A DNA stretch of 64,000 nt from the human T2T-CHM13v2.0 reference genome, Homo sapiens (GCA_009914755.4 CP086569.2:1408001-1472000), one strand, 5' to 3'; counted from the first letter of the stretch, positions 39,262-40,407 are shown. Notes: generated from the sequence alone by a model not told the origin. Numbers and translations are program-made.

Positions 39262-39845
39262 AACGGCATGCTGAAATCTTCACTGCAGAAAAGCAAAGCA
39301 CAAATGGCTTCAGCTGATGATAAGCACTTTGCAGAAGAATACAAAACGCTGATATTAAAAAAAAAAAAATGACTTGGGCTAGGGTGTGGTCTGCCGAGGA
39401 GGACAGAGAAGGGATATTAAGCTGGGGGTGGATGAATTTTTCACGGGAGAGATTGTAGGAACCGTCCGTGCTGCAGAAGGATGGAATGGCCTTGGGTCTA
39501 GATGAGTGTCTGAGTCATACATGAGCTCATAGCGTCCAGGTAGAGCCTGTGGTTGTGTTGTGCTGAGTTAGAAATCTGTTTTTATCTGTCACTTCCTCTG
39601 GCCCGCACGGCCTCTCACGCGATGGTGGAGAGAATTACCCCGTTTCCCGGAGTGGAATGTTTGTTTACTGAGTGCCCTCCTCTGGTTCAAACACGGACTC
39701 TGCATTTTCAGCGTGGTTTGCTGTTTCTTTGGGCAAATGGGTCAGTGTCCTCACGCCTCAAAATCTCCTCTGGGACTTCTGGACGGTATTCCTTAAATCT
39801 CCATCTTTCTTCCAACATTTAGCAAGATGAGGACTGGAATTTTCT

Positions 39846-40007
39846 TCCTGTCTTTCTTTTCTTTTTCTTTCTTTCTTTCTTTCTTTCTTTCTTTCTTTCT
39901 TTCTTTCTTTCTTTCTTTCTTTCTTCTTCCTTCCTTCCTTCCTTCCTTCCTTCTTTCTTTCTTTCCTTTCTTTCTTTCTTTCTCTTTCCTTTTCTTTCTC
40001 TCTCTCT
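39846..40007. repeat. (TTTC)n / (TTCC)n microsatellite = expanded poly-T tail of Alu 40008-40298
   Basis: TTCTTTTCTTTTTCTTTCTTTCTTTC...(TTTC)x~25...TTCCTTCCTTCC...; lies inside the TSD CTGGAATTTTCTT (39828-39840 / 40299-40311) of the Alu. Confidence 0.9.
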
Positions 40008-40298
40008 TTTTTTTTTTTGTGAGATGGAGTCTTGCTCTGTCGCCAGGCTGGAGTGCAGTGGTGTGATTTTGGCTCACTGCAACCTCCGCCTCCCAGGTTC
40101 AGACGATTCCTCTGCCTCAGCCTCCTGAGCAGGTGGGACTACAGCCACATGCCACCACGCCCAGCTAAGTTTTTTGTATTTTATTAGAGATGGGATTTCA
40201 CAGTGTTCGCTAGGATGGTCTTGATCTCCTGACCTCGTGATCTACCCACCTCGGCCTCCCAAAGTGCTGGGATTACAGGCGTGAGCCACTGTGCCCAG
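40008..40298 (-). mobile_element. Alu with TSD CTGGAATTTTCTT
   Basis: TTTTTTTTTTGTGAGATGGAGTCTTGCTCTGTCGCCAGGCTGGAGTGCAGTGGTGTGATTTTGGCTCACTGCAACCTCCGCC ... GCGTGAGCCACTGTGCCCAGC. Confidence 0.9.
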
Positions 40299-40407
40299 CT
40301 GGAATTTTCTTTTGAAGTGTACCAGCGTCCCCTGTATAAGTCTGTGGAAGAAAATGCATGATTATTATTGTGCTTATTATGATTATTGTCATTATTATTT
40401 TGAAAAA

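What the first reader, a model, noticed from the sequence alone, without database searches (positions are those of the whole stretch)
39828..40311. (TTTC)n microsatellite demonstrably born from an Alu poly-T tail (it lies inside the Alu's TSD)
The minus-strand Alu at 40008-40298 is bracketed by the TSD CTGGAATTTTCTT (39828-39840 and 40299-40311). The ~160-bp (TTTC)n/(TTCC)n tract at 39846-40007 lies between the upstream TSD copy and the Alu body, so it occupies the position of the Alu's A/T tail. The same pattern repeats elsewhere in the window: (a) the 700-bp GA-rich tract 8143-8840 follows the A-tail of Alu 7834-8142; (b) (GAAA)n 19322-19545 follows Alu 19028-19321; (c) CT-rich 17348-17788 sits at the tail of minus Alu 17789-18047; (d) the 1.74-kb CT megatract sits at the tail of minus Alu 45671-45957. 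Five tail-seeded purine/pyrimidine repeats in 64 kb, several of them hundreds of bp long, is a striking concentration.
Basis: seen in the sequence. Interest (0 to 1): 0.5.

Follow-up and report, generated by a model that had tools for sequence, protein, structure and literature searches.

The report
Microsatellite grown from an Alu tail
A 170-base (TTTC)n/(TTCC)n repeat really does sit inside the insertion footprint of an old Alu element, so it grew out of that element's poly-A tail; this is a well-documented process, and here it occurs in a sex-chromosome region (PAR1) already known to be rich in Alus and GA-type repeats.

Summary
The 13-nt direct repeat CTGGAATTTTCTT occurs only twice in the window, at 39834-39846 (not 39828-39840) and at 40299-40311. 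It brackets a full-length minus-strand S/Y-type Alu (40021-40298) plus 174 nt that are 99% purine on the Alu sense strand: A12, (GA)5, mixed GAAA, (GGAA)6, (GAAA)15. The repeat therefore occupies the Alu tail position. It most likely arose after insertion, by A-to-G substitution and slippage.

All seven polypurine/polypyrimidine blocks of 50 nt or more in the window abut an Alu 3' end in the matching orientation.

A tamarin orthologue shows that the 1.75-kb (TCCCC)n tract predates the split between New World and Old World monkeys. In tamarin it is several-fold shorter and still has T16 next to the Alu.

The window lies upstream of AKAP17A in PAR1, which is reported to be enriched in Alus and GA-microsatellites. 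The mechanism is already known. The number of events is ordinary for this Alu density; only the tract lengths stand out. I could not obtain an orthologue of the focal site.

The parts
39834..39846 (.). Target-site duplication, copy at the tail end of the Alu (CTGGAATTTTCTT)
   Evidence: Exact 13-mer, one of only two copies in the window; 0/300 shuffles reach the score
39847..39863 (-). Degenerate distal end of the tail (Alu sense: AAGAAAAGAAAGACAGG), including the CCTGT spacer next to the duplication
   Evidence: Sequence read
39864..39923 (-). Pure (TTTC)15 = (GAAA)15 on the Alu sense strand; longest uninterrupted run
   Evidence: Run decomposition, tail positions 98-157; sequence
39927..39950 (-). 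Pure (TTCC)6 = (GGAA)6
   Evidence: Tail positions 71-94
39951..39996 (-). Mixed GAAA/GGAAA/GAGAAA units
39997..40006 (-). (GA)5 block
   Evidence: Tail positions 15-24
40007..40018 (-). T12 = residual A12 of the original poly-A tail, next to the Alu body
40021..40298 (-). Full-length Alu body (S/Y-type, Sc-like; ~14% diverged, most CpGs decayed)
   Evidence: blastn to Alu consensus sequences; global alignment with 14-18 non-CpG and 19-23 CpG mismatches
40299..40311 (.). Target-site duplication, copy at the Alu 5' end (CTGGAATTTTCTT)
19829..19899 (+). Second duplication-verified case at an earlier stage. 71-nt A-rich tail with short (GAAA)3 runs, belonging to Alu 19548-19828; bracketed by AAA[T/C]GTTTATAGT at 19535-19547 and 19901-19913
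43930..45675 (-). Case d: 1746-nt (TCCCC)n-type tract abutting the 3' end of Alu 45676-45958 (-). No significant duplication. The orthologous tract in tamarin is much shorter
   Evidence: tamarin L001 5453-5529 and 5822-5991 with T16 next to the orthologous Alu
8121..8839 (+). Case a: 719-nt GA-rich tract continuing from the A-tail of Alu 7833-8120 (+); no duplication found
19307..19537 (+). Case b: A15 then (GAAA)16, (GGGA)4 and (GGAGA)n after Alu 19027-19306 (+). Bounded by the duplication of the next Alu; no clear duplication of its own
17352..17788 (-). Case c: 437-nt CT-rich tract abutting the 3' end of Alu 17789-18047 (-). Bounded by the 5' end of AluJo 17079-17347; only a weak duplication-like match
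60373..60492 (-). Seventh tract: 120-nt CT-rich block ending at TTTTTTGAGACG. That motif is the 3' end of an internally deleted minus-strand Alu whose left arm is 60515-60649

Best explanation
An S/Y-type Alu inserted by L1-mediated target-primed reverse transcription into the sequence CACTTCAA|AAGAAAATTCCAG|TCCTCATC (Alu orientation), duplicating 13-15 nt. It arrived with a largely homopolymeric poly-A tail. Over tens of millions of years, A-to-G transitions in the tail created AnG seeds (GA, GAAA, GGAA). Replication slippage then amplified these into the present 174-nt compound microsatellite A12-(GA)5-GAAA/GGAAA-(GGAA)6-(GAAA)15.

Shown: the position inside the duplication, the strand polarity, the residual A12, and block-wise pure runs. 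Inferred: the order of events and the slippage mechanism.

The same process, carried to different extents, accounts for the other six polypurine tracts in the window. Their unusual lengths (230-1750 nt) are best attributed to the regional context. This is PAR1, which has very high Alu density, an extreme male crossover rate and GC-biased substitution. That last link is an inference from the literature, not tested here.
For: - The duplication is exact, unique and correctly placed.
- The 174 intervening nt are 99% purine on the Alu sense strand, with A12 adjacent to the body.
- Period-4 autocorrelation is 0.87 against a 0.57 random expectation, and pure runs reach 15 units, the signature of slippage.
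- The window shows a graded series: pure A24-A28 tails, A-rich tails with scattered G, the duplication-verified 71-nt tail of Alu 19548-19828 with (GAAA)3 runs, then the focal and b tracts, then a, c and d.
- Duplication-verified Alus elsewhere in the window have tails of about 11-29 nt.
- 7 of 7 long polyR/Y blocks sit at Alu 3' ends in the matching orientation.
- The tamarin orthologue of case d retains T16 + (CT)n + (TCCCC)n next to the orthologous Alu. That is the same proximal-to-distal layout as the focal tail.
- Literature: Alu tails give rise to A-rich di-, tri- and tetranucleotide repeats by substitution plus slippage (PMC3812793). About 15% of the oldest Alu tails spawned new motifs (PMC7027126). 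About 30% of de novo STR mutations lie in Alus (PMC9743774). PAR1 is enriched for Alus and GA-microsatellites (T2T-Y preprint), and AKAP17A is a PAR1 gene.
Against: - No orthologous empty site or intermediate state of the focal locus could be retrieved, so the timing (after insertion versus carried in) is not directly shown.
- Five nt (ACAGG) separate the last repeat unit from the duplication and need an extra substitution to be read as repeat.
- The nick site implied by the 13-nt duplication (5'-TTCTT/TT) is not the L1 endonuclease consensus. It fits (TC|AAAA on the top strand) only if the duplication was 15 nt and two A's later became G.
- Tract G-content does not rise simply with Alu divergence: case d is 69% G at 88% identity.
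Confidence: 0.85

Rival explanations
1. The GAAA/GGAA pattern was already present when the element inserted. It was either copied from a source Alu whose A-tail had degenerated, or produced by reverse-transcriptase slippage or template switching during insertion.
For: The duplication shows position only, not timing. No orthologue was available to date the tract.
Against: - Efficient Alu retrotransposition depends on a long poly-A tail (review PMC3812793), and interrupted tails are poor substrates (my knowledge: Roy-Engel 2002, Comeaux 2009).
- Young Alus almost always have intact poly-A; fewer than 5% have another motif (PMC7027126).
- No other Alu in the window shares this tail layout.
- The block-wise pure runs point to local, continuing slippage.
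Confidence: 0.07
2. The Alu landed next to or inside a pre-existing (TTTC)n microsatellite, and the 13-nt match is coincidental.
For: The reverse scenario does occur in this window. Alu 61014-61291 has a purine-rich duplication, AAGA[G/A]AGGAGGAGAGACAG, so it entered a GA-rich target. In tamarin, an Alu sits inside tract d.
Against: - The 13-mer is exact and occurs nowhere else in 64 kb. My estimate for a 13-mer at the right two junctions is about 1e-4 to 1e-3.
- It is mostly non-repeat sequence.
- There is no repeat on the far side of either copy...GATGAGGA on the left and TTGAAGTG... on the right.
- The purine strand matches the Alu sense strand, and A12 joins the tract to the body.
Confidence: 0.02
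3. The tail was secondarily replaced or extended by sequence from another GA-rich locus, through gene conversion, unequal exchange or a second insertion into the tail, rather than by in-place slippage.
For: - PAR1 has an exceptionally high crossover rate (PMC4102438 abstract).
- The window shows tandemly duplicated Alu+tail units and a minisatellite built from an Alu 3' end plus tail, so unequal exchange acts here.
- Tracts a, c and d show recurring longer blocks by eye, and weak long-period signal.
Against: - The focal tract shows only period-4 structure with no higher-order unit.
- There is no second duplication inside it.
- It is much shorter than the tracts that do show longer-range structure.
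Confidence: 0.06

Closest known systems
Alu poly(A)-tail-derived microsatellites (Arcot et al. 1995, cited in PMC7027126; review by Grandi & An 2013, PMC3812793)
   Same: An A-rich repeat on the Alu sense strand, between the Alu 3' end and the 3' duplication. It is produced by base substitution in the tail followed by slippage.
   Different: Nothing in kind. This example is longer (174 nt against a mean tail-derived tract of ~35 bp) and is compound, with GA, GAAA and GGAA blocks.
Disease-associated repeats of Alu origin: CNBP/ZNF9 CCTG from an AluSx (PMC3378579), FXN GAA in the Alu middle A-stretch (PMC3812793), RFC1 AAGGG at an AluSx3 tail (my knowledge)
   Same: Same birth mechanism. Case d, (GGGGA)n, parallels the A-to-G enrichment seen in the RFC1 change from AAAAG to AAGGG.
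   Different: The focal repeat is intergenic, about 9.5 kb upstream of the AKAP17A start codon. No phenotype or pathological expansion is known to me.
PAR1 enrichment of Alus and GA-microsatellites (T2T-Y, 10.1101/2022.12.01.518724)
   Same: The window is PAR1 (AKAP17A), is 29% Alu and carries seven GA/CT-rich arrays, as that paper reports for the region.
   Different: In the passages I retrieved, that paper reports the two enrichments separately and does not connect them. Here every GA array in the window is physically attached to an Alu tail.
SINE-tail microsatellites in other mammals (carnivore tRNA-SINEs, PMC1634856; pig SINE tails, PMC12941198)
   Same: Judging from titles and abstracts only, the general principle is the same: SINE 3' tails are tied to microsatellites.
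   Different: A different SINE family and different motifs. I did not read these papers beyond the abstract.

Membership tests
Alu insertion by L1-mediated target-primed reverse transcription | ~280-nt dimeric Alu body matching a subfamily consensus from end to end | tested here: met
   Consensus positions 2-281, 86% identity; global alignment.
Alu insertion by L1-mediated target-primed reverse transcription | Direct target-site duplication of about 7-20 nt enclosing body plus tail | tested here: met
   13/13 CTGGAATTTTCTT at 39834-39846 and 40299-40311; unique in the window; 0/300 shuffles
Alu insertion by L1-mediated target-primed reverse transcription | A-rich tail at the 3' end | tested here: met
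   A12 directly after the body, then 160 nt of A/G only
Alu insertion by L1-mediated target-primed reverse transcription | Target resembling the L1 endonuclease site (TT|AAAA on the top strand) | tested here: inconclusive
   The top strand reads CACTTCAA|AAGAAAA for a 13-nt duplication. It reads CACTTC|AAAAGAAAA (a TC|AAAA variant) if the duplication was 15 nt and two A's at the tail junction became G. The consensus is recalled from memory.
Alu-tail-derived microsatellite | The repeat lies between the Alu 3' end and the 3' copy of the duplication | tested here: met
Alu-tail-derived microsatellite | The motif is A-rich on the Alu sense strand and is continuous with residual poly-A | tested here: met
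   70% A, 29% G; A12 -> (GA)5 -> GAAA...
Alu-tail-derived microsatellite | Repeat absent at the orthologous pre-insertion site, or simpler in lineages or stages closer to insertion | not testable with these tools
   The tamarin locus L001 stops about 3.4 kb short of the focal site. Metagenome and genome scans, the ORF look-up and the flank-ORF protein search found nothing. For case d only, the tamarin has the Alu plus a much shorter tract with T16.
Alu-tail-derived microsatellite | Length polymorphism in the population | not testable with these tools
   No population data are accessible. A pure (GAAA)15 run makes polymorphism likely (inference).
PAR1 GA-microsatellite / Alu-rich landscape | The locus lies in pseudoautosomal region 1 | tested here: met
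   The window encodes AKAP17A (99-100% to primate AKAP17A; 695-aa reconstruction). AKAP17A is listed as a PAR1 gene (PMC5342167).
PAR1 GA-microsatellite / Alu-rich landscape | Elevated Alu density and multiple GA/CT arrays | tested here: met
   29% Alu, 78 pieces; seven polyR/Y blocks of >=50 nt
Alu inserted into a pre-existing purine-rich repeat (reverse scenario) | The duplication is itself made of repeat sequence, or the repeat is present outside the duplication | tested here: not met
   The focal duplication is largely unique sequence and both outer flanks are non-repetitive. Contrast Alu 61014-61291, where this feature is met.

The most novel reading that the evidence does not exclude
In PAR1, the obligatory male crossover and GC-biased gene conversion might systematically drive Alu A-tails into long, progressively G-richer polypurine arrays (A -> GAAA -> GGAA -> GGGGA). 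These Alu-seeded arrays, together with the Alu-tail-derived minisatellites and tandem Alu units seen in this window, might in turn act as cis elements that favour axis loading or double-strand breaks. That would make them a primate counterpart of the mouse PAR mo-2 arrays. Nothing here tests function; the window only shows that every GA array is Alu-anchored and that several are unusually long.
Probability: 0.05. Interest if true: 0.6.

Novelty: already known. Interest (0 to 1): 0.15.

Why it matters
On its own the finding matters little. It is a clean, duplication-verified example of a process described since 1995 and quantified genome-wide.

It has some use as an annotation point: in this window the reported PAR1 excess of GA-microsatellites is entirely attached to Alu tails. 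That suggests the two reported PAR1 enrichments (Alus and GA repeats) are one phenomenon.

Long polypurine tracts such as the 1.75-kb (GGGGA)n array are prone to forming non-B DNA, which is my own knowledge rather than something tested here. The T2T-Y authors link GA-microsatellites in PAR1 to reduced HiFi coverage and assembly gaps. Their origin and instability therefore have practical relevance for assembling and genotyping PAR1.

Tried and rejected
- **Tamarin orthologue.** I looked up the Saguinus oedipus AKAP17A gene with a 10-kb flank. The locus is collinear with window 43238-58000, but its upstream part is filled with lineage-specific Alus. Nothing matches the unique flanks 39262-39846 or 40299-40420. 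It was useful only for tract d.
- **Flank ORF look-up.** An exact look-up of the 89-aa ORF in the left flank failed on the first attempt for lack of capacity. On repeat it found nothing.
- **Composite flank query.** A query made of all flank ORFs found no homologues.
- **Third protein search.** A search with the AKAP17A C-terminus returned no primate genome other than Saguinus.
- **Collection scans.** Exact-pattern scans for the left junction and for the right junction/empty site found no matches in metagenome contigs or in prokaryotic genome contigs.
- **Duplications for cases a-d.** Local alignment of each 5' flank against 2.6 kb downstream gave no score above the shuffles. By eye there are degenerate resemblances: for d, GTCTGTGATTTAGG against GCTTGTGGGTATTTGGG, slightly better using the tamarin flank; for c, AAGTGTAT against AGAGTAT. 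I do not count these as evidence.
- **Inverted AluJo pair.** I considered that AluJo 35479-35758 and 38969-39261 might be arms of one palindromic duplication. I rejected this because they are only 75.6% identical.

Full report
**What the window is.** The sequence is primate genomic DNA, human or a very close relative. ORFs at 49.8-57.7 kb on the + strand encode AKAP17A. The first coding exon is 99% identical to primate AKAP17A. The last exon has a 100% match. Joining four ORF segments gives a 695-aa protein. AKAP17A is a gene of pseudoautosomal region 1 (PMC5342167). The finding therefore lies about 9.5 kb upstream of the AKAP17A start codon, in PAR1.

**Checking the observation.** CTGGAATTTTCTT occurs exactly twice on the + strand and never on the - strand. 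The copies are at 39834-39846 and 40299-40311.
- In Alu orientation, the 5' copy abuts the Alu start (...CACTTCAA AAGAAAATTCCAG|CTGGGCACAGTGG...).
- The 3' copy follows the purine tract after five bases (...GAAAGACAGG AAGAAAATTCCAG TCCTCATC...).
- None of 300 shuffles of the 5' flank reaches this score against 2.6 kb of downstream sequence.
- Outside the two copies the flanks are unrelated, so this is not part of a larger duplication.

**The Alu and its tail.** The Alu body, 40021-40298 on the minus strand, is full length (consensus 2-281). It is of the S/Y group, closest to my Sc-like and Y consensus sequences. It has 14-18 non-CpG and 19-23 CpG mismatches, so it is old. The 174 nt between body and duplication (39847-40020) contain 121 A, 51 G and 2 C on the Alu sense strand. 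In order they read:
- AC, then A12
- (GA)5
- mixed GAAA/GGAAA units
- (GGAA)6
- (GAAA)15
- AAGAAAAGAAAGACAGG.

TRF reports period 4 with 44.8 copies. Period-4 autocorrelation is 0.87 against 0.57 expected from composition, with no higher-order period.

**What it is.** Sequence enclosed by a target-site duplication came in with the retroelement or evolved from what came in. The tract is purine-only on the Alu sense strand, is joined to the body by a surviving A12, and consists of block-wise pure runs. This is what is expected of a poly-A tail that acquired A-to-G substitutions and then expanded by slippage.

The window offers a graded series of the same process:
- pure A24-A28 tails (Alus 1134-1313 and 29637-29904);
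- A-rich tails with scattered G (Alu 16671-16950);
- a second duplication-verified case, Alu 19548-19828, whose 71-nt tail with short (GAAA)3 runs is bracketed by AAA[T/C]GTTTATAGT (19535-19547 and 19901-19913);
- the focal tract and tract b, with (GAAA)15-16;
- the long degenerate tracts a, c and d.

Alus elsewhere in the window with clean duplications have tails of roughly 11-29 nt. The focal tail is therefore about eight times the local norm.

**The other four cases.**
- Case a (8121-8839) ends in unrelated sequence.
- Case b (19307-19537) is bounded by the duplication of the next Alu.
- Case c (17352-17788) runs into the 5' end of AluJo 17079-17347.
- Case d (43930-45675) shows only a degenerate resemblance between its flanks.

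I therefore tested the association independently of duplications. I listed every polypurine or polypyrimidine block of >=50 nt in the window without reference to Alus. There are seven loci. Six start 0-2 nt from the 3' end of an Alu whose sense strand is the purine strand. The seventh (60373-60492) ends at TTTTTTGAGACG, the 3' end of an internally deleted Alu. About 30 correctly oriented Alu 3' ends per strand lie in 64 kb, so I estimate the chance of such a contact at about 0.1-0.2% per tract. The link between these tracts and Alu tails is thus secure even where the duplications have decayed.

The reverse scenario also occurs and can be recognised. Alu 61014-61291 has a purine-rich duplication, so it entered a GA-rich target.

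**Comparative evidence.** A Saguinus oedipus contig carrying AKAP17A (L001) is collinear with window 43238-58000. It does not reach the focal site: the unique flanks find nothing.

It does cover case d. The tamarin has the orthologous Alu, with unique flanks matching on both sides. Next to that Alu it has T16, then (CT)n, then about 150 nt of (TCCCC)-type repeat (L001 5822-5991). A lineage-specific Alu sits inside the tract (5536-5814). A short remnant at the left edge (5453-5529) begins at the same flank as the human tract.

So tract d already existed in the common ancestor of New World monkeys and catarrhines. It is about 250 nt in tamarin against 1746 nt here. In tamarin it keeps the A-run -> (GA)n -> G-rich layout also seen in the focal tail. 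This supports a tail origin for d. With only two species I cannot say whether the human tract expanded or the tamarin tract shrank.

**Why so many, and so long.** The literature already covers both the mechanism and the regional pattern.
- Non-LTR retrotransposon tails are a major birthplace of A-rich mono- to tetranucleotide repeats, through substitution plus slippage (PMC3812793).
- About 15% of the oldest Alu tails have spawned a new motif, and tail-derived tracts average ~35 bp (PMC7027126).
- About 30% of de novo STR mutations fall in Alus (PMC9743774).
- The T2T-Y paper states that PAR1 is enriched for Alus and for GA-microsatellites, to the point of causing HiFi coverage gaps.

In this window 7 of 61 Alus with an intact 3' end (about 11%) carry a long spawned repeat. 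That number is unremarkable given 29% Alu content. The lengths are what stand out.

The window also holds long arrays not attached to Alus: (ATCT)~270 and (ATGG)/(TGGA) arrays of ~1 kb. It holds tandemly duplicated Alu+tail units and a minisatellite built from an Alu 3' end plus tail. All this points to a region-wide tendency to amplify repeats. PAR1's extreme male crossover rate (PMC4102438 abstract) and GC-biased substitution (PMC9575207) are plausible drivers. That link is an inference and was not tested here.

**Rivals.**
- Inheritance of a patterned tail from the source element, or its creation during reverse transcription, cannot be excluded without orthologues. It is unlikely, because active Alus need long poly-A tails and young Alus rarely carry other motifs.
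- Insertion beside a pre-existing repeat is contradicted by the unique duplication, the non-repetitive outer flanks and the A12 junction.
- Secondary block exchange is possible in this region, but it is not suggested by the purely period-4 structure of the focal tract.

**Verdict.** The phenomenon is textbook, and the regional concentration matches what is published for PAR1. Interest is low. The only mildly new point is that, in this window, every GA-type array is anchored to an Alu tail, which suggests that the two reported PAR1 enrichments are one phenomenon.

Noticed in passing
35762-37482 and 37732-38669: A minisatellite with a ~76-bp unit. The unit consists of the last ~20 nt of an Alu (CAGAGTGAGACCCTGCCTCAAAA), a tail-derived (AATC/AATT)n stretch and ~28 nt of flank. 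It starts directly at the 3' end of AluJo 35479-35758. A second array of the same units lies in inverted orientation (arms 92-98% complementary) after a 250-nt unique spacer. Together they form a large imperfect palindrome 1.2 kb from the focal locus.
   Followed up: partly
3999-5173, 27789-28949, 29265-30272: Head-to-tail Alu arrays of 3-4 copies with periods of ~300-370 bp. The copies in the first array have near-identical tails (AAAAAGAAAA[C/G]A10-12GGC). In the first two arrays, pairwise identity is about equal to identity to the consensus (0.875 vs 0.895 and 0.855 vs 0.864), while scattered control Alus show 0.847 vs 0.900. This suggests tandem duplication of Alu+tail units rather than independent insertions. 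The third array (0.887 vs 0.927) does not show the pattern clearly.
   Followed up: partly
43930-45675; L001 5453-5991: The 1.75-kb tract is 69% G on the Alu sense strand, (GGGGA)n-like, about 4 kb upstream of the AKAP17A start codon. The tamarin orthologue is several-fold shorter, keeps T16 next to the Alu, and has a lineage-specific Alu inserted within it.
   Followed up: partly
19535-20230: Three copies of (AAA)GTTTATAGT: before Alu 19548-19828, before AluJo 19914-20197, and ~23 nt after that AluJo. The younger Alu appears to have re-used the older Alu's 5' junction as its target, giving three stacked Alus (19027-20197).
   Followed up: partly
38788-38841: (TATT)13, i.e. (AAAT)n, lies in the middle A-rich linker of a partial minus-strand Alu. 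It is a microsatellite born from the Alu internal A-stretch rather than from the tail.
   Followed up: no
13934-15084, 31525-32479, 33429-34531: Kilobase-scale tetranucleotide arrays that do not start at an Alu tail: (TCCA)n followed by (ATCT)~270, and (ATGG)/(TGGA) arrays, one with a 107-bp higher-order unit. They show that repeat amplification in this region is not limited to Alu tails.
   Followed up: no
61014-61291 with 60970-60988 and ~61292-61310: This Alu has a purine-rich duplication, AAGA[G/A]AGGAGGAGAGACAG (18/19). Here the Alu inserted into GA-rich sequence, the reverse of the focal case. It serves as an internal control for telling the two scenarios apart.
   Followed up: yes
2246-2968 and 52820-53072: Two further minisatellites: a 50-bp unit with 14.6 copies, and a 47-bp TCC-rich unit with 5.4 copies (94% matches). 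The second lies between AKAP17A coding exons.
   Followed up: no
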